Below, piece after piece: positions 45,437-61,622 of a stretch of DNA of 64,000 nucleotides (the first letter of the stretch is position 1; each line of letters opens with the position of its first letter). Below the pieces are notes generated by a model, which searched no databases, had not been told where the DNA came from, and worked only from the letters and a program-made list of their open reading frames with translations. The DNA comes from a virus (taxonomy: Duplodnaviria > Caudoviricetes), in the IMG/VR virus record IMGVR_UViG_3300035182_001315; one strand, written 5' to 3'. A program made the translations under genes and the position numbers.

Positions 45437-45445
45437 TTTTATACC

Positions 45446-46027
45446 ATGGACGTAACAAGAATGACAGAGAAATTGCTTCTGACACTTGACCCAAATTCGG
45501 GTTATACTCAGAAGGATTTTGAAAAGGAATTCATGCAAGCAACGGTGAACTCCGCTGCTCTTAAGACAGACTTCTATAAGTTGAAGGTTAACTTCGTAAA
45601 CGAATCAAACAACCCAAACCCAGAGTACGCAACTCCCGGTTCTTCAGGCTTTGATTTACGTGCTAACCTTGAAGAACCACTTGAGATTCAAGCTGGACAA
45701 AGAAAACTGGTACCAACCGGCCTCTTCTTTGAACTACCAGACAACTATGAACTTCAGGTGCGCCCACGTAGCGGCCTTGCAATCAAGCAAGGTATTACCG
45801 TATTGAATACGCCGGGAACTGTAGATTCTGATTACCGTGGTGAAGTTAAGGTTATCCTTATCAATCTGAGCACAATCACTCAAGCCATTTTACATGGTGA
45901 TAGAATTGCTCAGGCAGTTATTGCTCCGGTTACAGCATCAAACATTGTGAAGCTACTTCAAATTGAAACAATTGGAACCAACACAGAAAGAGGTGCCGGT
46001 GGGTTTGGTTCAACGGGTTTACAATAA
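45446..46027 (+). CDS. dut: Trimeric dUTPase
   Basis: All five motifs present: [37 protein letters not shown]. Confidence 0.95.
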
Positions 46028-46044
46028 TTCAAAAGATTTAATTT

Positions 46045-47511: not shown

Positions 47512-48290
47512 TAAAAATAATTTCAGGTTATACAGATAAAGGTGGCTCAACGGTCGCCTTTATCAATTTGACGAACGCCCTGAATGCTGCCGGTTACGAA
47601 ACCATCATGTACGGGCCACATCCGTGGTTTATGCATCATTGCAAATCAGATACCATTCAGAACTTTAAACCGGAACCAGATGATAATGTCATTGCTCACT
47701 TCTTGGATTTGAAGGTTAGGCCGAACGTTAAAAAGATTGTTTTGGCTTGCCATGAGAAATGGTGGTATGACGTAGCTAAGGTTCAACAGTTCTGGGATGA
47801 GGTAATCTTCCTGCATAAGGCACATAGAGAATATCATGGCGGTTATAGAGGCGATTGGACCATAATTCCGAATATCAAGGAACCTTTCATAATGAGAGAG
47901 AAACCAGAATTGGATTTGGTTGCCGGTATCGTTGGTGGAATTGAAGACAGGAAACAAACTCATGTTTCAATTCAAAGAGCGATGAAAGACCGTTGCAAAC
48001 AGATTTATCTTTTCGGTGGAATAAACGACAAAAGATATTACGAGCAAATGGTTAAACCCATGCTCAATCCAAGGATAATTGAATACGGCTACGCTTCAGA
48101 TAAACAAGCCATGTACGATTTGGTTGGTAGGGTTTATCACTCATCGAAAGGTGAAGTGGCATCACTGGTAAAGGATGAGTGTTTTTCAACCGGCACAAAA
48201 TTTTTCGGTAACGAGGAAACGGAAAATCAAATCTCAACACTTACCAATAACGAGGTTGTAGACCTTTGGAAAATAGTTTTTAGCTTATGA
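47508..48290 (+). CDS. Glycosyltransferase, GT-B (GT4-like)
   Basis: GGSTVAFINL N-terminus; EVASLVKDE is an E-x7-E motif. Confidence 0.7.
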   Translation: MIKIISGYTDKGGSTVAFINLTNALNAAGYETIMYGPHPWFMHHCKSDTIQNFKPEPDDNVIAHFLDLKVRPNVKKIVLACHEKWWYDVAKVQQFWDEVIFLHKAHREYHGGYRGDWTIIPNIKEPFIMREKPELDLVAGIVGGIEDRKQTHVSIQRAMKDRCKQIYLFGGINDKRYYEQMVKPMLNPRIIEYGYASDKQAMYDLVGRVYHSSKGEVASLVKDECFSTGTKFFGNEETENQISTLTNNEVVDLWKIVFSL

Positions 48291-49003
48291 TAATACACGC
48301 ACATATACTGGCATGGAACGAAGAAATGATTCTTCCGTATACCTTGGATTACTACTCCCTGATATGCGATAAGATTTTCGTCTATGATAACATGTCTACC
48401 GATGGTTCTGACGCAATTTACGCCAAGTATCCAAAAGTAAGTGTTATCAAGTGGTCAAGCAATGATGAGATAAACGAAATGAATTACGTTAACATCAAAT
48501 CAATGGCTTATCGGGAAACGAGCAGAGATGCTGACTGGGTTATTGTTTGTGATTGTGATGAATTTTTGTATTCTCCAATGTTATTAGAAGTACTGGAGAT
48601 TTATAAAATCACAGGGGTAACCGTTCCGAAAATTAATGGTCATGACATGGTGTCTGCAACCTTCCCAGAATACGATGGTGGTTCATTAATTGCTAAGATT
48701 AGAACTGGTTCGGATGTTTACGGCCCGATGAGCAAGAATATCATCTTTAACCCAAAGCTGGATGTATCCTATGGGATTGGTGGACACAGCTTTCAGGCTC
48801 CGGGTGCGGTTTATTCAGAAGCCGTTAATTTAAAATTGCTTCATTATAAGTTCCTTGGTAAGGATTATGTAAAGAAGCTTTATATCGCCAGAGCCAAGAG
48901 ACTTTCAACTTGGAACAAGCAGCATAAGTTCGGCGAGCATTACTTCAACCTTCCGTTCGAATACATGGATAGGTTGTTGAAAGAAAACAGACAAGTTATA
49001 TGA
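48287..49003 (+). CDS. Glycosyltransferase family 2-like
   Basis: AWNEE, YDNMSTDGS, VCDCDEF, LLHYKF. Confidence 0.8.
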   Translation: MIIHAHILAWNEEMILPYTLDYYSLICDKIFVYDNMSTDGSDAIYAKYPKVSVIKWSSNDEINEMNYVNIKSMAYRETSRDADWVIVCDCDEFLYSPMLLEVLEIYKITGVTVPKINGHDMVSATFPEYDGGSLIAKIRTGSDVYGPMSKNIIFNPKLDVSYGIGGHSFQAPGAVYSEAVNLKLLHYKFLGKDYVKKLYIARAKRLSTWNKQHKFGEHYFNLPFEYMDRLLKENRQVI

Positions 49004-49824
49004 GACAAATATTAGTATCAGACTTTACCATAAAGGAAGTTTCCCACGGTGGTTCAGAATGGGTAAACCAAGTGGTTATGGACAGATTTCCAGACTTAGA
49101 ATTCTGGTATTCTCAGCAAGTAACTGAATGGGATAAGGATGCATTTTATATTATCTCTAACATTTCTCTAATGAATCAGGCTTTGGTTAGACAAATCCCC
49201 AGCCTCAACTACATAATCTTAGAAAACGACTATAAAATTTGTCATAGCCGTCATCCATGGCGCTGGCCCAATTCTTTGGTTCCTCATAACGAGCGCATAA
49301 ACTACGATATCTATGCGAATGCAAAGGCTGTTTTTGTACAGACAACAGACCACATGAATGTTTACAAGGCCAATGATGTGAAGGCAAACTTTATCAATCT
49401 GAATTGTTCCATATGGTCCGATTCGGATTTGGCATTATTACAAAGTTTTTTACGCAAGAAACCTTTGAAAAATGGAAAACAAGCGGTATATTCTACGGGA
49501 AACTGGATTAAAAATACTGAAGGTGCGGTTAAGTACTGTGCTGAAAATAAACTAGAAGCTGTGCAGATTGAAAATCAGGAGAAGAGAGAAGACTTTTTGG
49601 ATAAGCTGTCCGATTGTTCTGGGTTGGTATTCTTCCCAATTGCGAGAGAAACCTTTTGCAGGTTGTTGGTTGAGGCCAAGTGTCTTGGATTGAAGGTGAC
49701 TACTAACAAGAATTCGGGGGCGGCTATGGAGAATTGGTTCGGTATGGAAGGTGAAGACCTCTTGAAGTTCCTGAAGATAAAAACTGAAATAAACCTTAAG
49801 AAAATTGGGGAATACATAAAATAA
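49000..49824 (+). CDS. Glycosyltransferase, GT-B (GT4-like)
   Basis: HGGSE N-terminus; ETFCRLLVE E-x7-E motif followed by AKCLG. Confidence 0.75.
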   Translation: MRQILVSDFTIKEVSHGGSEWVNQVVMDRFPDLEFWYSQQVTEWDKDAFYIISNISLMNQALVRQIPSLNYIILENDYKICHSRHPWRWPNSLVPHNERINYDIYANAKAVFVQTTDHMNVYKANDVKANFINLNCSIWSDSDLALLQSFLRKKPLKNGKQAVYSTGNWIKNTEGAVKYCAENKLEAVQIENQEKREDFLDKLSDCSGLVFFPIARETFCRLLVEAKCLGLKVTTNKNSGAAMENWFGMEGEDLLKFLKIKTEINLKKIGEYIK

Positions 49825-49829
49825 AAGTA

Positions 49830-50765
49830 ATGAGTATTAAAGAATGGCTTAGACGACAAGCGATGGCGATAACACTCGCTGTTACCAATGTTCAAAAAAA
49901 TGCTTTGAACCAAGAAGCCAATGAGCTTACTGCTGGCTCAAATCTTGAACAGAAGAAGGAATCGAGCGATTTGCTTCAGGCATTGTTGCGTGGTGAGGTT
50001 AACCAAGAAGTGAAAGACCTTCGCTGGAGAACATATAAGGTTATGAAGGCCGCAGAAAAGAAAAACGCCAGACTTATCCCTAAGATGATTTATGGTGAAA
50101 ATGGAGAAAGAGAATTTGCTTATGATGAAGAAGGTAGTATTATTTTTGAATCTGCAACCGTTAATCCTCGAAACAAAGAAAGAGCACTCGAAAAGGTCGT
50201 TGTTGATTTGACAGATAACTATCCAGTAAAGATGGTTGTAAAGAATGAGCCAGTTACCAATCCACTTGATTCAAAAGCAGACGAGAACATGGTTGTCGGA
50301 TATTCTTCCAAGAATCTTAATGATATGCCAATCAAAATTATCAGAGATTTTGTACCAAAGTTTGAGATTGAAAACTACGCAAAGAAAATGGTTGTAAGAA
50401 CCATCTCCGATACGGAAGTTCTTTTGGAGTTCTATATCAGCAAATACATAGACCCGTACAACGCTTCAAGCAAAATGCTCGTAGCTGAAATGAATAAAAT
50501 ACTGACCAATGGTCCCGACAAGGTTAATTCTCTTGAAATAAAGGAAGTTGGTTTCATTTCTGACAATACTATCGGTTCTGATGACTTCATGGGTTACGCA
50601 TATGATATTATTGGGTTTGACAAGATTGTTGATTTCGACGGGTATTACGTTCTGAAATTCAAGGCAACCGTAACTCTGGATGGTGAAGACCTGATGGAAA
50701 AATACAGGGAAGCTGAACTTGACAGGAAGTATAATGAAAAGGAACAGAGAAAAATGACCATATGA
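49830..50765 (+). CDS. Hypothetical protein within the glycan island
   Basis: 311-aa ORF with no recognised motif. Confidence 0.65.
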   Translation: MSIKEWLRRQAMAITLAVTNVQKNALNQEANELTAGSNLEQKKESSDLLQALLRGEVNQEVKDLRWRTYKVMKAAEKKNARLIPKMIYGENGEREFAYDEEGSIIFESATVNPRNKERALEKVVVDLTDNYPVKMVVKNEPVTNPLDSKADENMVVGYSSKNLNDMPIKIIRDFVPKFEIENYAKKMVVRTISDTEVLLEFYISKYIDPYNASSKMLVAEMNKILTNGPDKVNSLEIKEVGFISDNTIGSDDFMGYAYDIIGFDKIVDFDGYYVLKFKATVTLDGEDLMEKYREAELDRKYNEKEQRKMTI

Positions 50766-51481
50766 GTGTAACAGCAATTCTTAATGGATTTAAAAGGCCA
50801 CAATCTTTACAGGAACAGGTTGATGCTATCAGAGCACAGACAATCCCTGTGGACGATATTATGCTTTGGCAGAATCACGATGAAGGATTCGATAAGAATC
50901 TTACCAGCCAGCTTACAACAGCCGTTTGTAACAGGAACTTGGGTGTATGGGCCAGATTTGCTTTTGCCCTTAATGCCAAGACTGAGTACATCGCAATGTT
51001 CGATGACGATACCATCCCCGGCACCATGTGGATTGAGAATTGTTTAAACACCATGAAAAGTCATGAAGGATTGCTTGGTAGCATTGGATTGGTTTTGGAT
51101 TCACCAAATGGATATCGACCACATACAAGACATGGTTGGGCCGAACCTAACGAGAAGGTTGTTGAGTGTGATATTGTTGGTCATGCTTGGTTCTTCAAAC
51201 GTGAATGGCTTGCAACATACTGGAGAGAATTACCACCAATCGATGTTACGCTGGTAGGTGAGGATATGCACTTCTCTTATATGATTCAAAAGTATCTTGG
51301 ATTGAAGACTTTTGTCCCACCGCATCCTAAGCATGTTCCAGAAATGTGGGGCAGCATAAAGGGCTGGCAGCTTGGTGTTGGGCCGCAAGCTATTTCAGCA
51401 AACGAACACAGTATTGTTCTGATGAACAATTATTTTAATATAATACGCAGCAAGGGTTTTAAATTGGTAAAGCATGGATAA
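50762..51481 (+). CDS. Glycosyltransferase family 2-like
   Basis: LNGFKRP, NLGVWARF, AMFDDDTIPG, GEDMHFS. Confidence 0.8.
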   Translation: MSVTAILNGFKRPQSLQEQVDAIRAQTIPVDDIMLWQNHDEGFDKNLTSQLTTAVCNRNLGVWARFAFALNAKTEYIAMFDDDTIPGTMWIENCLNTMKSHEGLLGSIGLVLDSPNGYRPHTRHGWAEPNEKVVECDIVGHAWFFKREWLATYWRELPPIDVTLVGEDMHFSYMIQKYLGLKTFVPPHPKHVPEMWGSIKGWQLGVGPQAISANEHSIVLMNNYFNIIRSKGFKLVKHG

Positions 51482-52193
51482 GTATACAGCCGACTTTGAC
51501 TATTTCTGGCGACTTATCAACGAAGGTATGAATGTTACCTTTGCGAGATATGCCGATGGGGAAGTTTTGCTTATGCGTGGACATTCTGTTGGTAGTGACA
51601 CACAGGCTGGTAGGGTTGATAATTGGACATCTCCCGGTGGAACAACCAAGGTTGGTGCTGACCTTTTGCAAACCCTCAACCACGAAGAAAACGATTATTA
51701 CTATGCCATCTCTGGAATGAGCGATGATATGAATGACCACAAATACTTGAGAAGCGTTATTAAGCAAAATGAATCGCATTTGACGTTCGTTAACCTTTGG
51801 ATAAACGCAAATTATTCGAGGATGAAAGAAATGTTGTTGAATCTGAAACGTCCTGTTATTCTGATAGCGAATGAGATTGCACAAGGAAAGCCTTTCCCAT
51901 TTCCAGTAACGCATTTTACCGGCTTCCCAAACAACTGCATTCAATTCTGGGAGCAATTTGGCGACGAATACTCTCAATTCTTGCTGGATAATTACGGAAA
52001 AATGGAGAATCAGCTATTTTTTATCTCCTGCGGACCTGTTTCTGAGATTATTATTCACAAGCTTTATCAGAACAATCCTAACAATGCGTACATTGATGTT
52101 GGCTCATCCTTGGATGAACTTGTACATGGTAGACAAACCAGACCCTACATGAACCCAGCTTCAAGATACGCCAACGAAAAATCAAGTTTCTAA
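51474..52193 (+). CDS. GT-D-fold (DUF1792-like) glycosyltransferase
   Basis: FARYADGE and SCGP...YIDVGS motifs. Confidence 0.65.
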   Translation: MDKYTADFDYFWRLINEGMNVTFARYADGEVLLMRGHSVGSDTQAGRVDNWTSPGGTTKVGADLLQTLNHEENDYYYAISGMSDDMNDHKYLRSVIKQNESHLTFVNLWINANYSRMKEMLLNLKRPVILIANEIAQGKPFPFPVTHFTGFPNNCIQFWEQFGDEYSQFLLDNYGKMENQLFFISCGPVSEIIIHKLYQNNPNNAYIDVGSSLDELVHGRQTRPYMNPASRYANEKSSF

Positions 52194-52888
52194 TGATACA
52201 AGTAGCATATTCTAATTCGGTTTGTAAGGACCTCTGGCCAGCATTTTATAAACTGTTGATGATTCATTCAAAGATGCAAACATATTCAATCTTGGATATA
52301 GAAGCACCTTATTATATCGACAAGCATTTTATTTACGCCGGTGATGCACCCTATTACAAGGCTTGGACTGATGCATTAAAAGCTCTCCCAAACGAATTCT
52401 TTATCTATCTTCAAGAAGATTTTTTCCTTTACGATAGAGTAGACATGGTTAAGATAAGAGAGTACGAAACTTACCTTAAGGAACATCCTGAGTATTCATT
52501 CGTAAGACTTTTGAAATCCGGTGCGCTGGGTAACAAAAAGATTACTGATACCCTTTACGAAATCGAATCGACCAATCAAGATATTTTCTCCATGCAAGCC
52601 ACCATCTGGAGAAGTTCAGATTACATAAAGTTACTTGAGGAAGTGAAAGATGAGAAATGGCTTGAGAACTACAAATACCGTGACGCAGCCATCAAGCTTG
52701 GCATAAAGGGCCTCTACCATTACGATGGTGAGCCTAAGAGGGGCGGAGCACACTATGACAGCAAAGTTTATCCCTACATCGCCACGGCGCTCGTAAGGGG
52801 CAAATGGAACCTTTCTGAATATCCAAAGGAACTTGGGAAAATTGGACAAGACCATAACATTGATTTTACAAAAAGAGGAACTTACTAA
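52193..52888 (+). CDS. Putative glycosyltransferase (GT-A-like)
   Basis: FIYLQEDFFL, FVRL, SMQATIW; located among GT genes. Confidence 0.55.
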   Translation: MIQVAYSNSVCKDLWPAFYKLLMIHSKMQTYSILDIEAPYYIDKHFIYAGDAPYYKAWTDALKALPNEFFIYLQEDFFLYDRVDMVKIREYETYLKEHPEYSFVRLLKSGALGNKKITDTLYEIESTNQDIFSMQATIWRSSDYIKLLEEVKDEKWLENYKYRDAAIKLGIKGLYHYDGEPKRGGAHYDSKVYPYIATALVRGKWNLSEYPKELGKIGQDHNIDFTKRGTY

Positions 52889-53646
52889 TGGCAAATGAAA
52901 ACTTAGGTGTTTGGGAAGGATTCAAGAATTCTGTCAGACATCACTTAAATACGGATAATATAAATAACTTTCATAACTGGCCGGTGCTTCAGCAGACAAT
53001 GATTGCTGGGATTGATGCGGTGGAATTTACTCACTTGCAAAATTCACCTCTTTGGTCTAAGTGGATGGAAACACTGAATGAAACAGCCCTTCAACCCAAC
53101 TCTTATAACCCATTCCCAAGCAGCTCAACCAACAACATGCATCACGCATATTCCTTGGATGTAATGATGAGCCTTTTGGGGTTGAATCTTAATGAATTTG
53201 GTACAATTGTTGAGTTCGGCGGCGGCTATGGCAACACAGCCCGTTTGTTCAAAAGATGGGGTCACACCGGCGATTTTTATATCTACGACATCCCAGAACT
53301 TCTGGAAATCCAGAGGCATTACCTGACAGTAAACAATGCACCAGAAATCAAGCTTATCTCCGGCGCTGAGGCTCTGGGAGAGATTGGAAAAAATTCTTTG
53401 TTCCTTGGGTTATGGTCTATCAGTGAAGTGCCGGTTGAAGCCAGAGCAGCGTTGCTTGACCAGTTGAAGTTTTATGAATGTGAGAACATCTTCATCGCCA
53501 TGGGTGAAACCTTCTATCAAGAGAATAATATGGCTTGGTTGCAAGAGGTTGTAATACCAAAGCTTGGCCCAAAGTATGCGCATGAGTTTGTAAGGATTGC
53601 ACATGGCCAAGGTATGTACTATTTCCGAGCTAAAAAGACGGATTAA
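52888..53646 (+). CDS. Putative sugar O-methyltransferase
   Basis: IVEFGGGYGNTAR SAM motif, YIYDIPELLEIQRHYL, WSISE. Confidence 0.75.
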   Translation: MANENLGVWEGFKNSVRHHLNTDNINNFHNWPVLQQTMIAGIDAVEFTHLQNSPLWSKWMETLNETALQPNSYNPFPSSSTNNMHHAYSLDVMMSLLGLNLNEFGTIVEFGGGYGNTARLFKRWGHTGDFYIYDIPELLEIQRHYLTVNNAPEIKLISGAEALGEIGKNSLFLGLWSISEVPVEARAALLDQLKFYECENIFIAMGETFYQENNMAWLQEVVIPKLGPKYAHEFVRIAHGQGMYYFRAKKTD

Positions 53647-53649
53647 GGG

Positions 53650-53680
53650 TTTACATATTTATTTTTAATTAGTATCTTTG
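53650..53680 (+). promoter_or_regulatory. Bacteroidota-type promoter TTTACA-N17-TATCTTTG overlapping an ATATTTAT motif
   Basis: TATCTTTG at 53673-53680; ATATTTAT at 53655-53662. Confidence 0.65.
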
Positions 53681-53687
53681 CGTAACT

Positions 53688-54458
53688 ATGAAAGTTATCG
53701 CATTGACCTACGACTATGATTTAACCAAACTGGCTGAAATTGGGAGAAAATGGGCACCTGATGTTTATGGAAACAAGGACTATATCTTCGAATATTCAGC
53801 GGCATCCTATGCTACATTTTTGGACAAAAATCCAAACAAAGTACTTCATCTTTACACTGATGACATTCCTCTTATAAAAGAAAAGCTTAGCAAATATGTT
53901 ACCGGCCTTGAGTGGGTAATTTTCTATGATATTAACCACCTACTGGAGAAATATAAAAATGGGATGAGATACAGCTTTGATATGCTGACAGACTTCATCC
54001 ATTACGGCAAATCTCAAACAGAATTTACACTTAAGATTGATAATGATTTGGTATTTCATTCTGAAGTACCTGAACCGGCAACGGAAGGTAATGTCGTTTA
54101 CGTATGGAAATACGAAAGGCTGGTTAAGGAAGGTGACCCACGCATGGGCGAAATAAAGGTTGCCTCAGAAACCCTTGGTACCCTTGATTTCCCAATCTAC
54201 AACTTGGGTGTTTTTGGTTTACCGGCTCAATACCCAGAAGATGAGGTTCGTGAATTGATTGATAGAATGGTTGACGTTGATATCAGACCCGTAAGTGATT
54301 TGGGTGTAAAGATATGGCATTGCGCCGAACAGACGGCAAATAATTGGATTTTTCATGAAGTTGGCTACCACGTTGTTGAAACTTTTCGACATGTAACCCA
54401 CCACTATGACAATAAGCAGCTATGTATAAAGCATGCTGAATATCTTTTAAAGAAATAA
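53688..54458 (+). CDS. Putative nucleotide-diphospho-sugar transferase (GT-A)
   Basis: LHLYTDD, LKIDNDLVF (DxD), YNLGVFG, EQTA. Confidence 0.6.
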   Translation: MKVIALTYDYDLTKLAEIGRKWAPDVYGNKDYIFEYSAASYATFLDKNPNKVLHLYTDDIPLIKEKLSKYVTGLEWVIFYDINHLLEKYKNGMRYSFDMLTDFIHYGKSQTEFTLKIDNDLVFHSEVPEPATEGNVVYVWKYERLVKEGDPRMGEIKVASETLGTLDFPIYNLGVFGLPAQYPEDEVRELIDRMVDVDIRPVSDLGVKIWHCAEQTANNWIFHEVGYHVVETFRHVTHHYDNKQLCIKHAEYLLKK

Positions 54459-54459
54459 C

Positions 54460-55056
54460 ATGGCTGATGAATATTCACAGGCTGGCCAAGACAAATTTGT
54501 CCTGAGCCTTGCAAAAACTGACTTAGATCCAAATCATTACTTTGTTGATATCGGATGCTGGTTACCGATTACTCTTAACAACACAATGCTTCTTGAAGAA
54601 AATAGTTGGAAAGGTGTATCATTGGATATCTCCGACATGTATGCGGATTGGACAAGTAGGAAAACTCCTTTCGTACAAGCTGATGCACTTACAATGGACT
54701 ACGCATTGCTTTTCAAGAATACTGGGTTACCCCATTTTATTGATTACCTGAATGTGGATATCGAAGGAACCGGAATGAGATTTCAAGCCCTCAAGAAGGT
54801 TTTCGAATCTGGCCATGAGTTTGGAATCATAACAATCGAGCATGATGCTTACCGTGGGTTAACCGAATCTGAAATGGTACCTCAAAGGGAATTCCTGAGT
54901 GAGAAGGGTTACAGATTGGTTTGTGCCAGTGTTTGTTTGGGTGGCAACCCATTCGAGGATTGGTGGGTAAATACAAAATTCTATAAGGATTCTGAATACG
55001 AACATCTCTTGTCAAACAATGAAGAGGCAAGTGCAATAATAGCAAAATTAAAATGA
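54460..55056 (+). CDS. FkbM-like methyltransferase
   Basis: YSQAGQDKFV, FVDIG, WKGVSLD, IDYLNVDIEG, ITIEH, FEDWWV. Confidence 0.8.
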   Translation: MADEYSQAGQDKFVLSLAKTDLDPNHYFVDIGCWLPITLNNTMLLEENSWKGVSLDISDMYADWTSRKTPFVQADALTMDYALLFKNTGLPHFIDYLNVDIEGTGMRFQALKKVFESGHEFGIITIEHDAYRGLTESEMVPQREFLSEKGYRLVCASVCLGGNPFEDWWVNTKFYKDSEYEHLLSNNEEASAIIAKLK

Positions 55057-55610
55057 ACAATATGAGCAAAAACTATCAGAGTGATAACTCAAGCAATGTA
55101 GGCGAGTGGGAAAGCCACGCAGCCATCGCAGCAGCCGCTGAAAACGTAATCGTTGAGATTGGCGTTTTATTCGGTGACACAACAAAGGTATTGCTGGGCG
55201 CAGCAAAGCCAACAACTCACATTTACGGTATTGACCCTATAATTCCTGACTCTATGAACGAAGCCCTTATCGGTAGCGTTGAAAAGATAAATGAATTGGT
55301 TGCCCAGTATCCTAATTTCACCTTCATCAAGGATTACAGCTTCAACGTTGTTAAGACTTGGGACAAGGAAATTGATTACATCTTTATTGATGGTGACCAC
55401 CAGTACGAAGCAGTTAAGGCGGATTACGAACAATGGTTGCCTTTCGTTAAGGTTGGTGGTATCATTGCCATCCATGATTCAGCTGCGAACAGAGGCGGTC
55501 CGTTTTACTGGCCGGGGCCTTCACAATTGGCTGACGAATTAATCAATGCGTCTAATCTGGAATTCATTCAGACAAGACATACAATGACAATTTTAAAAAA
55601 AATCGCATGA
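55053..55610 (+). CDS. Class I SAM-dependent methyltransferase (Methyltransf_24-like)
   Basis: VEIGVLFG, YGIDP, IDYIFIDGDHQYEAVKAD, GGIIAIHD. Confidence 0.85.
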   Translation: MNNMSKNYQSDNSSNVGEWESHAAIAAAAENVIVEIGVLFGDTTKVLLGAAKPTTHIYGIDPIIPDSMNEALIGSVEKINELVAQYPNFTFIKDYSFNVVKTWDKEIDYIFIDGDHQYEAVKADYEQWLPFVKVGGIIAIHDSAANRGGPFYWPGPSQLADELINASNLEFIQTRHTMTILKKIA

Positions 55611-57295
55611 AAAAAAGAGTTTTAATATTGGGTGGTGGTGGCTTTATCGGCGGACACTTAGCGAAGAAACTAAAGTCTGAGGGTTGCTGGGTACGTGTTG
55701 TGGATATCAAGAAACATGAGTACTTTAAGGAAGAAGATTTCTGTCATGAATTCATTCTCGGAGACCTCAGAAATCCTTTAACCGTTTCAAAGGCAATGTT
55801 CTCCCCATCTCAATCATCACCAAATGATGCTGTTGGTAGCTTCGATGAAGTTTACCAGCTTGCGGCAGACATGGGCGGTGCCGGTTATATTTTTACTGGT
55901 GACCATGATGCAGACGTTATGCACAACTCAGCTCTTATCAACCTAAACGTTGCTCATTACGCTGAGAAGCACAAGGTGAAGAAGATATTTTACTCTTCAT
56001 CAGCATGCATGTATCCTGAACACAACCAGCTTGACCCTTTGAATCCAAACTGTGAAGAATCTTCTGCATACCCTGCAAATCCAGATTCTGAATATGGTTG
56101 GGAAAAGTTATTCAGCGAAAGACTCTACGGAGCATTCAGCCGTAACTATGGAATGGATGTACGTATTGCAAGGTTCCACAACATCTTCGGTCCTTATGGA
56201 ACATGGAAGGGTGGAAAGGAAAAAGCACCGGCAGCTATGTGCAGAAAGGCCGCTGAAACTGAGGCTGGCAGCAGCATTGAGGTTTGGGGTGACGGTCAAC
56301 AGACTCGTTCATTCTTATACATTGATGATTGTCTTAAGGCAATTGAGAAGTTCATGGAATCTAATTTCCAAGGGCCGGTGAATATCGGTTCTGAAGAAAT
56401 GGTAACAATCAACGAATTGGCTCAAATGGCTATTGATTTATCAGGAAAAGACATTAAGATTGATAATATTAAGGGTGTTGAATTCTTGTTGAAATACGGA
56501 TTCAATTGTCCTACAGGTGTTAGAGGAAGAAATTCTGATAACAAACTGTTCGAAGAAAAAATGAAGTGGAAGGTTAATCAGCCGTTGAAGGATGGCATGG
56601 CCAAGACCTTTAATTGGATAAAGAACCAGTTATACATGGATAAATTTTGCGTAGTAGTACAAGGCCCCAGCACCCAAGTGGATGAAATCAGGACAGCGTT
56701 CGGTGAGGCCGGTATTCATGTTATCTTTTCTACATGGGAAGGACAGAGGGATAAATATTCTGATAGCGATATCGTGGTGTTTAACGAATATCCAACTGAT
56801 GCTGGAATAGGGAATATCAACTATCAGAAGATTACAACTCTCAATGGTTTGATGAAAGCGAAACAGCTGGGGTTTGACTACGCATTAAAATTCAGAAGTG
56901 ACCAAATTCCGACGAATCCAAAAGAATTCGTTAAGTCTTTTTTTAATGACAGGCTTAACTTCTTTGCTTGGCACTTCACACCGGATTTGGCAATCAAGGG
57001 TTACATGGTTGATTATTTTATGTCTGGGCCGATTGACCAACTCATTGATATCTGGACGTTCGAATCAATCAGGTACAGCATTCCAGAGGCGATGATAACC
57101 AATGGAATTCTGAAGAATTTTGAGAAGTTCAATTTCCTTGTAAATGTTTTGGATGAGGACAACGATGTGTACTGGGACAAATATAAGATTAAACTTAGTA
57201 ACTTCAAGAACATCAAAACAACAACTTGGTTCGGTGAAATCGACCTGAGAATTGAGCCGGTTGTTCATGAAGCATATAAAACAGTTTTCGAATGA
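55607..57295 (+). CDS. GDP-mannose 3,5-epimerase-like SDR fused in frame to a WavE-like domain
   Basis: GGGGFIG, SSACMYP, YGWEK, RFHNIFGP, EKAPAAMCRK, VRGRNSDN (aa 1-342); then M344-DKFCVVVQGP...IFSTW...KFRSD (WavE-like). Confidence 0.85.
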   Translation: MKKRVLILGGGGFIGGHLAKKLKSEGCWVRVVDIKKHEYFKEEDFCHEFILGDLRNPLTVSKAMFSPSQSSPNDAVGSFDEVYQLAADMGGAGYIFTGDHDADVMHNSALINLNVAHYAEKHKVKKIFYSSSACMYPEHNQLDPLNPNCEESSAYPANPDSEYGWEKLFSERLYGAFSRNYGMDVRIARFHNIFGPYGTWKGGKEKAPAAMCRKAAETEAGSSIEVWGDGQQTRSFLYIDDCLKAIEKFMESNFQGPVNIGSEEMVTINELAQMAIDLSGKDIKIDNIKGVEFLLKYGFNCPTGVRGRNSDNKLFEEKMKWKVNQPLKDGMAKTFNWIKNQLYMDKFCVVVQGPSTQVDEIRTAFGEAGIHVIFSTWEGQRDKYSDSDIVVFNEYPTDAGIGNINYQKITTLNGLMKAKQLGFDYALKFRSDQIPTNPKEFVKSFFNDRLNFFAWHFTPDLAIKGYMVDYFMSGPIDQLIDIWTFESIRYSIPEAMITNGILKNFEKFNFLVNVLDEDNDVYWDKYKIKLSNFKNIKTTTWFGEIDLRIEPVVHEAYKTVFE

Positions 57296-58017
57296 ATGTA
57301 TTAATACCAATGGCTGGGCTGGGTTCTCGTTTTCCAGTAAGTGAATACAAGGTACCGAAGCCAATGATACCGATAAAGAATTTTGGTCTACCAATGATTG
57401 AGGTGGCTATCAAAACTCTTGATGTTTCTGGTAAATATATTTTTATTGTAAACAGTGCTCAACCAGAATATTTTGAAGTTGTGAAGACTCTTTGGAAAGC
57501 GGCTAATAATCCAATAATCATCAATGTTGATTATTTAACAGAAGGCCCAGCTTCAACTTGTTTATTGGCAACTCAATTTATTAACAACGATGAACCGTTG
57601 GTTATTGCTAACTGCGACCAAATTATGGAATGGTCAGGACAGTCTTTTTTGGAATACTGTAACCAATCAGATTCAGATGGTATCGTTGTAACGTATGATG
57701 TACAGACAACAAAAAACAGTTATGTGAAACTGGATGAGCGTGGATGGGCAACTGAATTTGCTGAAAAGAAAATCATCAGTAATCACTCCCTTAATGGTAT
57801 TCATTACTGGAAGAAGGGGTCTGATTTCGTTGAGTCAGCAATGAAAATGATTGACAAAGACATCAGGGTGAACAATGAATTTTATATTTCCCAGACGTAC
57901 AATGAACTTGTACAGGAAGGAAAGAAAATAACAATTTATGAAATAGACAAGTTTCAGCACTGGGCCGTAGGAACACCTGAAGACTTGGATAAATACAATG
58001 AACATGCGAATTTATAA
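57292..58017 (+). CDS. Sugar-phosphate nucleotidyltransferase (NTP_transferase family)
   Basis: LIPMAGLGSRF, PKPMI, TEGPA, IANCDQ, FAEKK, NNEFYIS, VGTPEDL. Confidence 0.85.
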   Translation: MNVLIPMAGLGSRFPVSEYKVPKPMIPIKNFGLPMIEVAIKTLDVSGKYIFIVNSAQPEYFEVVKTLWKAANNPIIINVDYLTEGPASTCLLATQFINNDEPLVIANCDQIMEWSGQSFLEYCNQSDSDGIVVTYDVQTTKNSYVKLDERGWATEFAEKKIISNHSLNGIHYWKKGSDFVESAMKMIDKDIRVNNEFYISQTYNELVQEGKKITIYEIDKFQHWAVGTPEDLDKYNEHANL

Positions 58018-58327
58018 TTTACGTGATATGGTGGGTGGTTGGTTTGTAGGTAACTTCGAACCGGCAGCATTACAAACAGATACTTTCGAGGTTTGTTATA
58101 AGCATCATAAAGAAGGTGAAGTATGGGACACACATTACCATAAGGAAGCCATTGAAGTTAATTTATTGGTTAAGGGTACGATGTTCATTAACGATATGAA
58201 GATAGTAGCTGGTGAAATCTTTGTTATTCCACCTTATTATGTTTCAGCACCAGTATTTGCAAGTGATTGTGAGCTGGTCGTAATTAAAACACCTTCAATT
58301 AAGGGTGACAAATATGTAGTAAAATAA
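57998..58327 (+). CDS. Cupin-domain protein
   Basis: GGWFVGNFEP, HYHKEAIEVN (cupin motif 1), GEIFVIPP (motif 2), VVIKTPS. Confidence 0.8.
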   Translation: MNMRIYNLRDMVGGWFVGNFEPAALQTDTFEVCYKHHKEGEVWDTHYHKEAIEVNLLVKGTMFINDMKIVAGEIFVIPPYYVSAPVFASDCELVVIKTPSIKGDKYVVK

Positions 58328-58332
58328 ACGAT

Positions 58333-59514
58333 ATGATATTTAAAGAAAAATTAAACGAACAGGATTACATTATAGTGAAGTACTATCTTGAATCAGAAAC
58401 CAACCTCAGAGATGCGGCTTGGAATTTGGCGATTGGCCAAAGCGTAGGTAACCCTAATGTAAGAAACAAATGGGAAAGCGATGAGTTATTCGAAAAATAT
58501 TCCGCAATGGTGGAAGGTGACGAGGAATCTTTAAAAGGTGTGAAGGGAGGGATAGTGAAGATTGGATTCCCCAAAATCAATTTGGATTGGGCTACTGACG
58601 GTGTTTCTCAATTGCTTTGCTTCATTATGGGTGGCCAGATGGACATCGACAACGTAACCAAGTGTCACGTGTTGGATATCGACTTCCCAGAATCAATCTC
58701 TTCAACATTCCTTAAGCCAAAGTTTGGCCTTACAGGATTCAGAGATTTCAGCAACACACATGGCAAGCCTTTCTTTGGTGCTATCGTAAAACCAAAGACT
58801 GGCATTTCAAGTGATGTACTTTTGGAGATGGTAAAGGAAATGGTTGATGGTGGTGTAAACTTCATCAAGGAAGACGAAATTCTTTCTAACCCAGCATTCT
58901 GTACGATTGAAGAAAGAGTTCCGAAAATCATGGAATACGTTAAAGGTAAGGGTGTGATATACTCTGTGTGTATCAACTCAGACCCTGCATATATATTGGA
59001 CCGTGTAAAGCGTGTTCACGAGCTGGGTGGAAACTCAGTTCACGTTAATTTTTGGTCTGGCCTTGGCGTATATAAGTCAATCCGTGAATTGGACCTTCCG
59101 ATTTTTATTCACTTCCAGAAATCTGGTGACAAGACCCTGACTGCAAAGTCTCACGATTATCATATCGAATGGTATGTAATCTGTAAGCTGGCCGCAGCCA
59201 TGGGTGTGGATTCGATTCATGCTGGCATGTATGGTGGTTATTTGAATGATGAGAAAGAAGAACTTCTTCACAACTTGGGGGTATTGAGAAGTGCGAATGT
59301 TATCCCAGCCTTGAGTTGTGGCATGCATGCCGGTTTGATTGACTACGTTACTGATAACGTGGGTATCGATTACATGGCGAACGTTGGTGGGGCTATTCAT
59401 GGTCATCCAGATTCAACCGGAGCCGGTTGTAGAGCAATAAGACAAGCCATAGACAAAACCTATGGTGAAGAATACTACAAGGCAATTGCCAAGTGGGGTA
59501 AAAAAACTGACTAA
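58333..59514 (+). CDS. RuBisCO-like protein (form IV RLP)
   Basis: K153-P-K155 (K175/K177), FIK179-E-D181-E182 (K201/D203/E204), H260 (H294), H296 (H327), S328-C-G, G352-G353. E60, R295 and K334 equivalents are replaced (G35, F261, Y303). Confidence 0.92.
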   Translation: MIFKEKLNEQDYIIVKYYLESETNLRDAAWNLAIGQSVGNPNVRNKWESDELFEKYSAMVEGDEESLKGVKGGIVKIGFPKINLDWATDGVSQLLCFIMGGQMDIDNVTKCHVLDIDFPESISSTFLKPKFGLTGFRDFSNTHGKPFFGAIVKPKTGISSDVLLEMVKEMVDGGVNFIKEDEILSNPAFCTIEERVPKIMEYVKGKGVIYSVCINSDPAYILDRVKRVHELGGNSVHVNFWSGLGVYKSIRELDLPIFIHFQKSGDKTLTAKSHDYHIEWYVICKLAAAMGVDSIHAGMYGGYLNDEKEELLHNLGVLRSANVIPALSCGMHAGLIDYVTDNVGIDYMANVGGAIHGHPDSTGAGCRAIRQAIDKTYGEEYYKAIAKWGKKTD

Positions 59515-60152
59515 TGATTATAAGTAATTTCGTAAACCATATCCTTGGTCAGAACAAGGATTATTCACCAAAGGTAATCTTGGACATCGGTTCAAGAGAC
59601 CTTGGCCAGAGCATTGAGCTGGGCTCCGTGTTCCCGAATGCCAAGATTTATGCCTTCGAACCAAACCCAGAACAGTTTAAGATTTGTGCTGAGTTAGCTA
59701 AGAATTATCCAAATATCACCGCAATTCCCAAGGCTGTAAGCAACATCACCGGCACCTTGGATTTTTATGTAACTCATGGTAACGTGGGCGCATCATCAAC
59801 GCTGGAACCTCTTGACGTTCCGTTCGGTACAAGCAGGGACTTTACAAAGATTACTGTTGAATCAATCATCCTTTATGATTGGTTAAACGCTGAAGGAATT
59901 GACCAAGTTGACGTTATGTGGATGGACGCTCAGGGTATCGAATTGTCTGTATTGAAAAGTCTTGGTGAAAAATTGGAAAAAGTTAAGTATCTTCACTGTG
60001 AAGCGGCAGAAATTGGGTATTACAAGGGACATCAGTTGAAGGCTGAGCTTGATGAATACTTGGTTTCAATGGGTTTTGACCTTTTATTTAAAAACGAAGC
60101 ATACCATCCTTACAAAGAGGGAGATATTATTGCTACAAACAGAAACATATGA
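59514..60152 (+). CDS. FkbM-family methyltransferase
   Basis: ILDIGSRD, YAFEP, GASS, DVMWMDAQGIELSVLKS. Confidence 0.85.
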   Translation: MIISNFVNHILGQNKDYSPKVILDIGSRDLGQSIELGSVFPNAKIYAFEPNPEQFKICAELAKNYPNITAIPKAVSNITGTLDFYVTHGNVGASSTLEPLDVPFGTSRDFTKITVESIILYDWLNAEGIDQVDVMWMDAQGIELSVLKSLGEKLEKVKYLHCEAAEIGYYKGHQLKAELDEYLVSMGFDLLFKNEAYHPYKEGDIIATNRNI

Positions 60153-60712
60153 TACTTATAAGCCACAGGGGGAACATTGACGGCATCAATCCAAAATTGG
60201 AGAATGACCCGATGTATATCAAGATGGCCCTGACCATGGGTTATCATGTTGAAATTGACGTTTGGTATTCAAACGAACAATGGTACCTTGGCCATGACCT
60301 ACCAACGTTTCCAATTGATGAATCATTTCTTGAGAATGATAAGCTTTGGTGCCATTCGAAGAATCATTACGCAATGGAGAAGATGTTACATAACCATTTG
60401 ATTCATTGTTTCTGGCATGAGAATGACCAGCTGACCCTCACTTCAAAAAGATTTGTGTGGACATATATGGGTAAGAATCAAATAGCAAATTCAATTGCTG
60501 TTCTCCCTGAGAAATTTCCATTCAGAGAGATTTCACCAAACGTTGTTGGTATATGCAGCGATAATATTAAAAATTATAAAGGTAATGATATTACTCACTT
60601 ACGGAACCCGTCCAGAATATATAAAGGTTCATCCAATAATGGTGGAGATGACCAGAAGGCAAATGAAATTCAAGACTCTTTTCACAGGCCAACACAAGGA
60701 CCTGCTATCTGA
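60149..60712 (+). CDS. GDPD/PI-PLC-like phosphodiesterase-fold protein (C-terminus extended over the next gene)
   Basis: ISHRGN, VEIDVW, LGHD, WCHSKN, FWHEND, GICSD. Confidence 0.7.
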   Translation: MILISHRGNIDGINPKLENDPMYIKMALTMGYHVEIDVWYSNEQWYLGHDLPTFPIDESFLENDKLWCHSKNHYAMEKMLHNHLIHCFWHENDQLTLTSKRFVWTYMGKNQIANSIAVLPEKFPFREISPNVVGICSDNIKNYKGNDITHLRNPSRIYKGSSNNGGDDQKANEIQDSFHRPTQGPAI

Positions 60713-61622
60713 TAATGAAGCTGATTACAATCACCCATTTGAAAACTTCCCCGGTAACCGTTTAGATTCGGTATTGAAGAATTGCTTGAGCCTGAACGAT
60801 AGATACTTTGATGGTATCACCCATGTATTGGTACAAGGTGATACAACGTCTGTATTGGGATTGGCTATAACAGCAATGCACAGAGGATTAAAGATTATTC
60901 ATCTTGAAGCTGGGCTAAGAACTTATGATAAACAGAATCCATTCCCAGAGGAAAACAATCGTAGACTTATTTCAGCAATCGCTGATATTCATTTATGTCC
61001 AACAATACAGAGTCAATCAAATTTAATTCGAGAAGGTATTGATGAGAATGATACATACCTTGTTGGTAACACCGGCTTAGATGAAATCTTAAAAAAAATA
61101 ATTCCTCTCCGTGATACAAGTGAACCAAAAGAAATATTAATAACTCTTCATAGACGAGAAAATCACGAGAAGATGGATGAGTGGTTTACCGCAATTAATG
61201 ATTTAGCCAAGGACTATCCACAATATAATTTTGTTGTCCCTTTGCATCCAAACCCAATGGTACAAAAGCATAAAGATTTATTAACAGATGTTGTTATCGT
61301 TGAGCCAATGTCTCATTTTCAATTGTTAAATTTCATCTCAAGAAGTAGATTGGTAATAACCGATTCGGGCGGTATTCAAGAAGAATGTTCGTTCTTGAGA
61401 AAGAAAGTGCTGGTTTGTCGTAAGATAACCGAAAGGCCAGAATCGCTGGGGTTAACGTCATGGCCGGTTATGACTCCAAACGATTTGAAGAATCTGTTTA
61501 GGAAACACAGTAGTTCCTATTTTGTTCCGCCAGATACATATTGTCCATACGGGGACGGGCATGCCTCAGAAAAAATCTGTGATATATTTCAGGGTTGGTG
61601 TAACTTCGAAAAAGGTCTTTGA
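60585..61622 (+). CDS. wecB: UDP-N-acetylglucosamine 2-epimerase (non-hydrolysing)
   Basis: GTRPE, VQGDT, HLEAGLR, PEENNR, TLHRREN, DSGGIQEE, YGDG. True start MILLTYG at 60585. Confidence 0.92.
   Translation: MILLTYGTRPEYIKVHPIMVEMTRRQMKFKTLFTGQHKDLLSDNEADYNHPFENFPGNRLDSVLKNCLSLNDRYFDGITHVLVQGDTTSVLGLAITAMHRGLKIIHLEAGLRTYDKQNPFPEENNRRLISAIADIHLCPTIQSQSNLIREGIDENDTYLVGNTGLDEILKKIIPLRDTSEPKEILITLHRRENHEKMDEWFTAINDLAKDYPQYNFVVPLHPNPMVQKHKDLLTDVVIVEPMSHFQLLNFISRSRLVITDSGGIQEECSFLRKKVLVCRKITERPESLGLTSWPVMTPNDLKNLFRKHSSSYFVPPDTYCPYGDGHASEKICDIFQGWCNFEKGL

What the first reader, a model, noticed from the sequence alone, without database searches (positions are those of the whole stretch)
57292..60712. 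Phage RuBisCO-like protein embedded in a sugar-nucleotide biosynthesis module (nucleotidyltransferase-cupin-RLP-methyltransferase-GDPD-like)
Seen: five tightly coupled genes with overlapping or adjacent start/stop codons. The RLP keeps the carbamate/Mg2+ site (K179, D181, E182; K153 to K179 spacing is 26, as for K175 to K201), H294, H327 and the phosphate-binding S/GG loops. It has lost E60, R295 and loop-6 K334, so it should enolise a ketose-phosphate-like substrate but not fix CO2. Established: characterised RLPs act in salvage or catabolism (MtnW enolase, R. rubrum MTRu-1P isomerase, apiose/acid-sugar and hamamelose pathways). Inference: here the RLP, with the cupin as a second isomerase/epimerase, makes a rare or branched sugar phosphate. 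The nucleotidyltransferase then activates it for the neighbouring GTs and O-methyltransferases. That would be an anabolic role for the RuBisCO fold in viral glycan synthesis. RuBisCO-family genes have been noted in phage metagenomes before, so the novelty is the function, not the presence.
Basis: partly seen in the sequence, partly recalled or inferred. Interest (0 to 1): 0.9.

Follow-up and report, generated by a model that had tools for sequence, protein, structure and literature searches.

The report
Phage RuBisCO-like enzyme in sugar-activation cassette
A large tailed phage carries a RuBisCO relative that cannot fix CO2 and that travels with, and is sometimes fused to, a sugar-activating enzyme, a small metal-binding isomerase-like protein and a miniature phosphodiesterase in surface-sugar gene clusters of phages and bacteria, which points to an untested sugar-building job for this enzyme family.

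Summary
Window 57292-60712 holds five overlapping or abutting + strand genes: a sugar-1-P nucleotidyltransferase (NTase), a 109-aa cupin, a 393-aa RuBisCO-like protein (RLP), an FkbM methyltransferase and a GDPD-like protein.

Four of them form a conserved cassette. In 80 IMG/VR loci that hold the RLP, the NTase is present in 79, the mini-GDPD in 74 and the cupin in 69. The methyltransferase is present in only 6. Gene order varies, and fusions link all four: NTase-cupin, NTase-RLP in both orders, and GDPD-RLP.

The cassette also lies in the cell-surface glycan island HVR2 of a complete SAR11 chromosome, and in CPR and other cellular assemblies.

The RLP is a separate clade, not MtnW and not a carboxylase. 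One residue claim needs correcting. H294 is Gln262. R295 is kept as Lys263 (Lys or Arg across the family). Both phosphate sites therefore look retained.

Cultured cyanomyoviruses have RLP-less versions: NTase fused to a HAD or RpiB domain, plus the mini-GDPD and sometimes the cupin.

The most likely role is that the RLP enolises or isomerises a ketose (bis)phosphate that ends as a nucleotide-activated rare sugar. The chemistry is untested.

Phage RLPs were reported by Jaffe et al. 2019. This scan has found the same cassette on at least 13 other genomes.

The parts
57292..58017 (+). Sugar-1-phosphate nucleotidyltransferase-like gene (241 aa); core member of the cassette
   Evidence: PF00483 at 36.8 bits against a cut-off of 21.2. 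Best solved relative is 4evw, an NDP-sugar pyrophosphorylase, E 2.4e-8 over the full length. Weak NCBIfam hits to RmlA, GlmU, AglF and HddC. Present in 79 of 80 RLP loci. Fused to the cupin in 16 loci and to the RLP in P0091, P0107, P0117 and P0125.
57998..58327 (+). Small cupin (109 aa) with a predicted metal site (H46, H48, E53), resembling phosphomannose-isomerase cupins; core member
   Evidence: AF2 pLDDT 96.7. Foldseek PDB hits include 3h8u and the archaeal small PMI 7zvm/7zvy, E 6e-6. The top 15 Swiss-Prot rows are the C-terminal cupin domain of ManC, XanB, AlgA and RfbM, E 8e-7 to 3e-6. Present in 69 of 80 loci.
58333..59514 (+). RuBisCO-like protein (393 aa, P0001) of the form-IV-like phage/CPR clade; non-carboxylating
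   Evidence: PF00016 at E 1.6e-35. Below every NCBIfam equivalog cut-off. Forms a monophyletic clade with SH-aLRT 99-100, apart from MtnW-like and bona fide forms. Active-site map.
59514..60152 (+). FkbM-family methyltransferase (212 aa); an accessory gene, not part of the conserved cassette
   Evidence: PF05050 at 6.3e-14. TIGR01444 at 75.7 bits against a cut-off of 37.7. A homologue of this window's copy is found in only 6 of 80 loci. Other loci carry other sugar methyltransferases.
60149..60712 (+). Miniature GDPD-like phosphodiesterase (187 aa here; the family is typically 138-157 aa); core member. Its 3' tail overlaps wecB.
   Evidence: Invariant H6, R7, E18, N19, E35, D37 and H49. AF2 pLDDT 95. 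In VIA-align the top 22 rows are all GDPD family, Z 7.5-10.4 with 137-145 of 150 residues aligned, and the next row is Z 6.4. No Pfam hit. Present in 74 of 80 loci. Fused to the RLP in P0160.
55607..57295 (+). SDR epimerase/dehydratase fused to a WavE-like domain (562 aa); context gene directly upstream
   Evidence: PF01370 at 4.6e-39, with a weak PF07507 WavE hit. SDR homologues occur in 13 of 80 loci by tblastn and in 38 of 96 by clustering. WavE also flanks the NTase-RLP fusion.
60585..61622 (+). Non-hydrolysing UDP-GlcNAc 2-epimerase (WecB); context gene downstream
   Evidence: TIGR00236 at 234.8 bits against a cut-off of 210. PF02350 at 3.3e-66. The start at 60585 comes from the gene call.
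43541..57295 (+). Co-directional glycan island upstream: GT4, several GT2 genes and methyltransferases
   Evidence: Pfam hits.

Best explanation
The RLP belongs to a four-enzyme cassette: NTase, PMI-like cupin, RLP and mini-GDPD. The cassette feeds a nucleotide-activated unusual sugar, or a sugar-like phosphate, into glycan synthesis. The neighbouring glycosyltransferases and methyltransferases would then use and decorate the product.

Shown here:
- The four genes are co-inherited across phages and cells.
- They are joined by gene fusions.
- They sit in glycan islands.
- The RLP keeps the Mg2+/carbamate enolisation set (K153, K179, D181, E182) and both phosphate sites: S328, G330 and G352/G353 for one, K263 and H296 for the other.
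- The RLP has lost the residues needed for CO2 addition and C-C cleavage (E60, N123, H294, K334).

Inferred:
- The RLP enolises a ketose bisphosphate, or a similar doubly anionic ketose, and reprotonates it. That would make it an epimerase or 1,3-isomerase, which are known side reactions of RuBisCO.
- The cupin performs an aldose-ketose isomerisation, like the PMI domain of ManC/AlgA.
- The NTase then makes the NDP-sugar.
- The role of the mini-GDPD (phosphoester trimming or transfer) is open.
- In RLP-less versions in cultured cyanomyoviruses, HAD or RpiB domains with kinases appear to do the feeding instead. The RLP is therefore one of several interchangeable sugar-phosphate feeder enzymes for this NTase.
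For: Synteny. NTase 79/80, mini-GDPD 74/80 and cupin 69/80, despite changes of order and strand. The same genes are found in 12 to 14 of 16 cellular loci.

Fusions. NTase-cupin in 16 loci. NTase-RLP, RLP-NTase and GDPD-RLP. NTase-HAD and GDPD-DUF7796.

Cellular context. In a complete Ca. Pelagibacter chromosome the cassette abuts the 16S-tRNA-tRNA-23S block. That is the edge of HVR2, the SAR11 glycosyltransferase/methyltransferase island (PMC3448164). Its neighbours there are a GT9 heptosyltransferase, a HAD-NTase fusion and a CMP-sugar-synthase-like gene.

Neighbours elsewhere. Sugar O-methyltransferases, a DegT aminotransferase, a C-methyltransferase-like gene, a GT61-like gene and WavE.

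Cupin. Its best reviewed fold matches are the PMI domain of bifunctional NTase-cupin enzymes.

RLP residues.

RLP clade. It is distinct from MtnW-like and bona fide forms.

Cultured-phage variants. These carry HAD_2-NTase or NTase-RpiB, then the mini-GDPD, sometimes the cupin, a GHMP kinase and a PfkB-like gene.
Against: - No biochemical data exist for any member, and no substrate can be named.
- The conserved cassette holds no kinase or mutase, so the route to an anomeric sugar-1-phosphate is not evident.
- A phosphodiesterase has no obvious place in a standard NDP-sugar pathway.
- The NTase could activate a polyol phosphate or another phosphate rather than an aldose-1-phosphate.
- The glycan's target in the phage (host surface, virion or DNA) is unknown.
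Confidence: 0.7

Rival explanations
1. Salvage-type pathway. The RLP, a phosphoesterase and a cupin would repeat the MtnW enolase, MtnX phosphatase and MtnD cupin dioxygenase trio of Bacillus methionine salvage. They would process a by-product such as a 5-deoxy- or methylthio-pentulose phosphate, and would not build a glycan precursor.
For: MtnW of Geobacillus (2oek) is among the best solved relatives: 126 bits for the single sequence and 148 bits for the family profile. RLP plus cupin plus a phosphate-removing enzyme is the classical trio (established knowledge of the mtn pathway).
Against: The score is far below the MtnW equivalog cut-offs: 150 against 409, and 126 against 514. The RLP is a separate clade from the MtnW-like signature group. 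H294, which MtnW keeps, is Gln here. The cupin's best matches are PMI domains, and no ARD/MtnD family appears in the rows shown. The NTase is the most tightly linked partner and is fused to the RLP. No MtnA/B/K-type genes were seen among the recurrent neighbours.
Confidence: 0.07
2. The cassette makes an activated phospho-substituent rather than a glycosyl donor. This would be an NDP-polyol or NDP-ketose, in the manner of CDP-ribitol or CDP-glycerol. The product would be added to a glycan through a phosphodiester, and the mini-GDPD would handle that bond.
For: The mini-GDPD keeps the full GDPD catalytic motif set. It is nearly as conserved as the NTase. It follows the NTase in cultured cyanophages too. 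It is fused to a WavE/DUF7796-like putative transferase in L013. The NTase gives weak hits to MobA/IspD-type models.
Against: The NTase's best full-length matches are sugar-1-P enzymes: 4evw, RmlA, GlmU, AglF and HddC. The cupin resembles the PMI domain of GDP-mannose enzymes. This is a variant of the main explanation, not a contradiction of it.
Confidence: 0.15
3. In phages the product is used to hypermodify DNA, as a sugar on a modified base, rather than for a surface or virion glycan.
For: A dUTPase/dCTP-deaminase-like gene (45446-46027) and a weak HD-domain gene lie at the start of the island, next to a GT4. Large phages often glycosylate DNA (general knowledge).
Against: The same cassette lies in SAR11 HVR2 and in CPR and other cellular assemblies, among LPS-type genes. 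The island holds many GT2-type genes, WavE and O-methyltransferases, which are typical of oligosaccharide assembly.
Confidence: 0.05
4. The RLP is a working carboxylase, or acts in AMP/nucleoside salvage like form III RuBisCO.
For: The form III model gives the highest NCBIfam score (170 bits). Form III chains are among the best PDB matches.
Against: E60 is Gly, N123 is Gly (or Gln), H294 is Gln and K334 is Tyr, invariant in 117 members. The score is far below the form III cut-off of 497. No AMP phosphorylase or R15P isomerase was seen among the recurrent neighbours.
Confidence: 0.02

Closest known systems
'Form IV-like' RuBisCO-related proteins of phages and Beckwithbacteria (Jaffe, Castelle, Dupont & Banfield 2019, Mol Biol Evol; PMC6389311)
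   Same: Large myovirus-type phage genomes that carry a divergent RLP lacking the carboxylase residues. A Beckwithbacteria homologue is 53% identical (L093). This is very probably the same clade.
   Different: That paper leaves the function open. Its main text has no occurrence of 'nucleotidyl', 'glycosyl' or 'cupin'.
MtnW / YkrW 2,3-diketo-5-methylthiopentyl-1-phosphate enolase (PDB 2oek, 2zvi)
   Same: RuBisCO fold. Carbamylated Lys with the Asp/Glu Mg2+ site. Loss of E60 and K334. Enolisation chemistry is expected.
   Different: Separate clade and below the equivalog cut-offs. H294 is Gln here, whereas MtnW keeps His. R295 is Lys/Arg here, whereas MtnW-like sequences have Pro. The partners are an NTase and glycan genes, not mtn genes.
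Bifunctional mannose-1-phosphate guanylyltransferase / mannose-6-phosphate isomerase (ManC, XanB, AlgA; type II PMI-GMP)
   Same: An N-terminal PF00483 NTase with a C-terminal cupin. The NTase-orf109 fusions in 16 loci have this architecture, and orf109's best reviewed fold matches are exactly that cupin domain.
   Different: Sequence identity is only 15-25%. The cupin here is 109 aa and no third His ligand is evident. The pair is joined by an RLP and a mini-GDPD, which GDP-mannose synthesis does not use.
Glycerophosphodiester phosphodiesterases (GDPD, PF03009; e.g. 7e0v, 1o1z, GlpQ 5t91)
   Same: Same barrel topology (Z up to 10.4) and the same catalytic motif set, HR..EN..ExD..HD.
   Different: About 145 aa instead of 220-330, with most helices missing. 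No Pfam hit. The Atlas clusters are almost wholly viral. The substrate is unknown.
RLP-less NTase cassettes of cultured cyanomyoviruses (S-CAM9 gp067, B3 gp358-359, SynMITS9220M01_192-195, Bellamy)
   Same: The NTase is 39-47% identical. It is followed by the mini-GDPD (34-42% identical) and, in two phages, by the cupin (37-38%). All lie in glycosyltransferase islands.
   Different: There is no RLP. The NTase is instead fused to a HAD_2 domain or to an RpiB/LacAB isomerase, with a GHMP kinase, a PfkB-like gene and a HAD phosphatase nearby.

Membership tests
RuBisCO large-subunit superfamily (PF00016 + PF02788) | Both Pfam domains above the gathering score | tested here: met
   PF00016 at 123.3 bits against 30.1. 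PF02788 at 21.9 bits against 20.7.
Carboxylating RuBisCO (forms I-III) | Mg2+/carbamate set: K175, K201, D203, E204 | tested here: met
   K153, K179, D181 and E182 are invariant or near-invariant in 117 members.
Carboxylating RuBisCO (forms I-III) | Residues for CO2 addition, hydration and cleavage: E60, N123, H294, K334 | tested here: not met
   G35, G101 (or Q102), Q262 and Y303, all invariant. Form III model at 170 bits against a cut-off of 497.
MtnW / YkrW DK-MTP-1-P enolase | Score above the NCBIfam equivalog cut-off, and placement in the MtnW clade | tested here: not met
   NF007095 at 149.7 against 409. TIGR03332 at 125.6 against 513.6. The RLP clade is separate from the group with the MtnW-like signature (Lys at N123, His-Pro at 294-295).
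OiaX / apiose-pathway RLPs | Score above the NCBIfam equivalog cut-off | tested here: not met
   NF042437 at 123.1 against 700.
'Form IV-like' phage/Beckwithbacteria RLP clade (Jaffe et al. 2019) | Divergent RLP on large tailed-phage genomes that groups with Beckwithbacteria sequences | tested here: met
   The window has a tail sheath, baseplate hub and tape measure. 273 IMG/VR contigs hold relatives. The Beckwithbacteria locus L093 is 53% identical. The family is one clade.
Sugar-phosphate nucleotidyltransferase (PF00483) | Pfam gathering score and the N-terminal G-x-G-S/T-R motif | tested here: met
   36.8 bits against 21.2. The sequence reads MAGLGSRF at residues 7-14. The nucleotide and the sugar cannot be determined with these tools.
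Cupin superfamily, PMI-like | Cupin fold with motif 1, G-x5-H-x-H-x3,4-E-x6-G | tested here: met
   The motif lies at G40 to G60. H46, H48, E53 and G60 are invariant and G40 nearly so. Fold matches. Isomerase activity cannot be tested here.
GDPD (PF03009) | Pfam model match | tested here: not met
   No Pfam hit at E<=5 for residues 1-150 or for the full length.
GDPD (PF03009) | GDPD barrel fold with the catalytic residues His/Arg, Glu/Asn, Glu-x-Asp and His-Asp | tested here: met
   Z 7.5-10.4 to 22 GDPD-family chains, with the next unrelated row at 6.4. H6, R7, E18, N19, E35, D37 and H49 are invariant.

The most novel reading that the evidence does not exclude
The cassette is a kinase-free and mutase-free route to a rare NDP-sugar. 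It would start from a common ketose-1,n-bisphosphate such as FBP, SBP or RuBP. The RLP epimerises or 1,3-isomerises it, using RuBisCO's enolisation half-reaction as the main reaction. The cupin converts the ketose-1-phosphate end to an anomeric aldose-1-phosphate. The mini-GDPD removes or rearranges the distal phosphate. The NTase then caps the product. This would be the first anabolic, glycan-building role for the RuBisCO fold. It would be spread by phages into SAR11, CPR bacteria and DPANN archaea.
Probability: 0.15. Interest if true: 0.85.

Novelty: new variant of a known kind. Interest (0 to 1): 0.66.

Why it matters
All characterised RuBisCO-like proteins work in salvage or catabolism. 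A clade that is wired to a sugar-activating enzyme in surface-glycan islands would give the superfamily a biosynthetic role. That clade has 273 IMG/VR contigs and also occurs in SAR11 HVR2, CPR and other cellular assemblies.

It would also point to an unknown sugar in the surfaces that decide phage-host recognition in some of the most abundant aquatic microbes.

The question can be tested directly. The enzymes are small, the conserved partners are known, and cultured cyanomyoviruses carry RLP-less versions for comparison.

Tried and rejected
- Megablast of 57292-61700 and tblastn of the RLP against 50,697 GenBank phage records: no match.
- PHROGs: no family for the RLP.
- Single-sequence scan of IMG/VR: no confirmed locus. 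The alignment-based scan was needed.
- No whole genome is held for the window.
- The control genomes of the genome search matched the family but returned no sequences. Named form I-IV references could therefore not go into the tree. I classified tips by active-site signature instead.
- Tabita et al. 2007 (the IV-GOS clade) could not be read under the id I recalled. Whether this family is IV-GOS stays open.
- Literature searches linking RLPs to nucleotidyltransferases, nucleotide sugars, SAR11 or viral AMGs found nothing relevant.
- No RNA holder was listed for the stretch.
- The roughly 250-aa family clustered with orf187 by single linkage is not related to it (hhalign probability 0.2). Its similarity to the window's WavE-like domain is not significant (E 0.05).

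Full report
**What is there**

The window is part of a large tailed phage.
- It encodes a tape measure, baseplate hub, tail sheath, tail-fibre-like protein and a 1613-aa DNA polymerase on the - strand.
- It also has a long co-directional + strand block of glycan genes from about 43.5 kb to the PhoH gene at 61.6 kb.
- Near-identical DNA comes from sediment and microbial-mat metagenomes.
- The nearest cultured relatives by tail sheath are distant, at 30-40% identity over part of the protein.

Inside the finding's coordinates are five genes with junctions of -20, +5, -1 and -4 nt.
- An NTase: PF00483 at 36.8 bits. Its best solved relative is the NDP-sugar pyrophosphorylase 4evw.
- A 109-aa ORF.
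- A 393-aa RuBisCO-like protein: PF00016 at E 1.6e-35.
- An FkbM methyltransferase.
- A 187-aa ORF.

**The two unnamed ORFs**

Neither has a Pfam hit. Both fold with high confidence from alignments of phage homologues.

The 109-aa protein is a cupin.
- Its model has pLDDT 96.7.
- It carries a canonical motif 1, G40-x5-H46-x-H48-x4-E53-x6-G60.
- Its top 15 matches among reviewed proteins are the C-terminal phosphomannose-isomerase cupin of ManC, XanB, AlgA and RfbM, at E 8e-7 to 3e-6 and TM 0.64-0.68.
- Small archaeal PMIs are among its best PDB matches.

The 187-aa protein is a stripped-down GDPD barrel over residues 1-150.
- Its model has pLDDT 95.
- The top 22 VIA-align rows are all GDPD-family chains, at Z 7.5-10.4. 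The next row is Z 6.4.
- It has invariant HR, EN, ExD and HD motifs.
- Homologues are typically 138-157 aa.
- Here a roughly 35-residue tail runs into the wecB gene in another frame.

**The conserved unit**

The RLP has 2586 homologues at E<=1e-5 in the metagenomic protein collection. 273 IMG/VR contigs encode relatives.

I searched the 80 best loci with this window's proteins by tblastn.

| Gene | Loci with a homologue (of 80) |
|---|---|
| NTase | 79 |
| mini-GDPD | 74 |
| cupin | 69 |
| SDR | 13 |
| WecB | 9 |
| FkbM methyltransferase | 6 |

Order and orientation differ between loci. For example, L028, L036 and L045 are each arranged differently. Linkage is thus kept despite rearrangement.

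Fusions tie the genes together.
- NTase-cupin ORFs of 343-353 and 434-443 aa occur in 16 loci.
- NTase-RLP fusions exist (P0091, P0107, P0117), and so does the reverse order, RLP-NTase (P0125).
- P0160 is a partial GDPD-RLP ORF.
- One locus has NTase fused to a HAD phosphatase. One has the mini-GDPD fused to a DUF7796-like domain.

The unit is four genes, not five. The methyltransferase is a local accessory. Other loci carry CmcI-, TylF- or C-methyltransferase-like genes instead.

**Cellular copies**

The GTDB species set holds 16 loci with relatives of the RLP. Of these, 14 also hold the NTase and 12 hold at least one further cassette gene.
- One is a complete Ca. Pelagibacter chromosome. There the cassette abuts the 16S-tRNA-tRNA-23S block.
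- That position is the edge of HVR2, the SAR11 island known for glycosyltransferases and methyltransferases (PMC3448164).
- Its neighbours there are a GT9 heptosyltransferase, a HAD_2-NTase fusion, a 2-hydroxyacid dehydrogenase and a CMP-sugar-synthase-like gene.
- Other carriers are SAR11 single-cell genomes, a Verrucomicrobiae chromosome, and Beckwithbacteria, other Patescibacteria and Saccharibacteria assemblies. Some of these contigs may be phage DNA binned into MAGs.

**The RLP itself**

It falls below every NCBIfam equivalog cut-off.

| Model | Score (bits) | Cut-off (bits) |
|---|---|---|
| form III | 170 | 497 |
| MtnW | 150 | 409 |
| OiaX | 123 | 700 |

I built a tree of 113 representatives at 50% identity, drawn from a full HMMER scan of 1.84 billion proteins. 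In it the family is one clade with SH-aLRT 99-100. It is separate from the bona fide carboxylase signature group and from the MtnW-like group. The deeper position is unresolved, and the tree has no named references.

Residue mapping by profile alignments to form III chains and to RLP 3nwr, and by the 120-sequence alignment:

| RuBisCO residue | Here |
|---|---|
| K175 | K153 |
| K177 | K155 |
| K201 | K179 |
| D203 | D181 |
| E204 | E182 |
| H292 | H260 |
| H294 | Q262 |
| R295 | K263 |
| H298 | D266 |
| H327 | H296 |
| K334 | Y303 |
| S379 | S328 |
| G380 | C329 |
| G381 | G330 |
| G403/404 | G352/353 |
| E60 | G35 |
| T65 | N40 |
| N123 | G101 (or Q102) |

These positions are invariant or near-invariant in 117 close members. 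Across the wider clade, position 263 alternates between Lys and Arg, while position 260 varies among H, F, M and Y. This supports the new register. The MtnW-like sequences align their His-Pro with columns 262-263. From memory, the literature equates MtnW His264 with H294, which would agree.

In my reading of the textbook roles of these residues, the enolisation machinery and both phosphate sites are kept. The residues for CO2 addition and cleavage are gone. This points to a RuBP-like, doubly anionic ketose as the substrate. It does not fit the monophosphate that loss of R295 would suggest.

**RLP-less relatives in cultured phages**

No cultured phage in GenBank has the RLP. About 20 Synechococcus myoviruses do have the NTase at 39-47% identity. 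The mini-GDPD follows close behind it. Bellamy and SynMITS9220M01 also have the cupin.
- In S-CAM9 and B3 the NTase is the C-terminal half of a HAD_2-NTase fusion.
- In SynMITS9220M01 the NTase is fused to an RpiB/LacAB sugar-phosphate isomerase. A GHMP kinase, a PfkB-like gene, a HAD phosphatase and a DUF7796 gene lie around it.
- All of these sit in glycosyltransferase islands.

The NTase's fusion partners across all versions are HAD_2, HAD, RpiB, the cupin and the RLP. All are enzymes that reshape sugar phosphates. This is the best argument that the RLP prepares the NTase's substrate, or acts on its product.

**Mechanism**

Shown: co-inheritance, fusions, glycan context and the residue pattern.

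Inferred:
- The RLP enolises a ketose (bis)phosphate and reprotonates it to give an epimer or a 3-keto isomer.
- The cupin isomerises between ketose and aldose forms.
- The NTase makes the NDP derivative.
- The role of the mini-GDPD is open.

The exact sugar cannot be named. Rivals are listed separately: salvage, an NDP-polyol or phospho-substituent donor, DNA modification, and true carboxylation. Only the phospho-substituent variant keeps appreciable weight.

**Novelty**

Jaffe et al. 2019 reported about 80 phage 'form IV-like' RLPs together with Beckwithbacteria sequences, and left the function open. The held literature has nothing that links RLPs to nucleotide sugars.

Earlier agents of this scan reached the same cassette reading on at least 13 other genomes. 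My analysis was run before I saw those notes, and it agrees with them.

I did not see three points in those notes:
- the H294/R295 register;
- the PMI-domain match of the cupin;
- the RLP-less variants in cultured cyanophages.

Noticed in passing
window 60585-60712: The mini-GDPD ORF runs 35-40 codons beyond the usual family length (138-157 aa). It overlaps the start of wecB by about 128 nt in another frame. Gene callers on sister contigs either drop the ORF or shorten wecB.
   Followed up: partly
L070:8617-9399, L024:8182-8865, L105:7103-7852, L013:8212-9273: A family of about 250 aa with a weak DUF7796 hit lies beside the cassette in 34 of the 96 loci analysed. It is annotated 'capsular polysaccharide biosynthesis protein' in SynMITS9220M01. 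In L013 it is fused to the mini-GDPD. It may be the transferase that uses the product. It is not related to orf187, and its similarity to the window's WavE-like domain is not significant.
   Followed up: partly
window 44843-46027: A gene with a weak HD-domain hit and a dUTPase/dCTP-deaminase-like gene sit between a GT4 and the GT2 array at the start of the glycan island. This hints at nucleotide-pool or DNA-modification functions next to the glycan genes.
   Followed up: no
window 24338-29179 (- strand): The DNA polymerase ORF is unusually long at 1613 aa. The polymerase PHROG matches cover only about residues 96-620. The remaining roughly 1000 residues are unassigned.
   Followed up: no
L045:8258-9373 and 9404-10420 (and 9 or 6 similar loci): In one subgroup of loci, an NDP-sugar C-methyltransferase-like gene and a GT61-like gene lie between the RLP and the mini-GDPD. 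Several of these contigs are labelled GVMAG (giant-virus bins) in IMG/VR. The Atlas neighbours of these genes are partly Nucleocytoviricota. The cassette may therefore also occur in giant viruses, or those bins may be phages.
   Followed up: partly
L105 (Synechococcus phage SynMITS9220M01) 5632-6789: A cultured cyanophage has an NTase fused to an RpiB/LacAB sugar-phosphate isomerase. It is annotated only as 'phosphatase'. The cupin homologue at record 152797-153096 is only partly annotated.
   Followed up: partly
P0137 (428 aa): This is the sister lineage to the cassette RLP clade. It shares Gln at H294, Arg at R295 and Tyr at K334, but has Gly at G380 and a different N-terminal motif. Its genomic context was not examined.
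   Followed up: no
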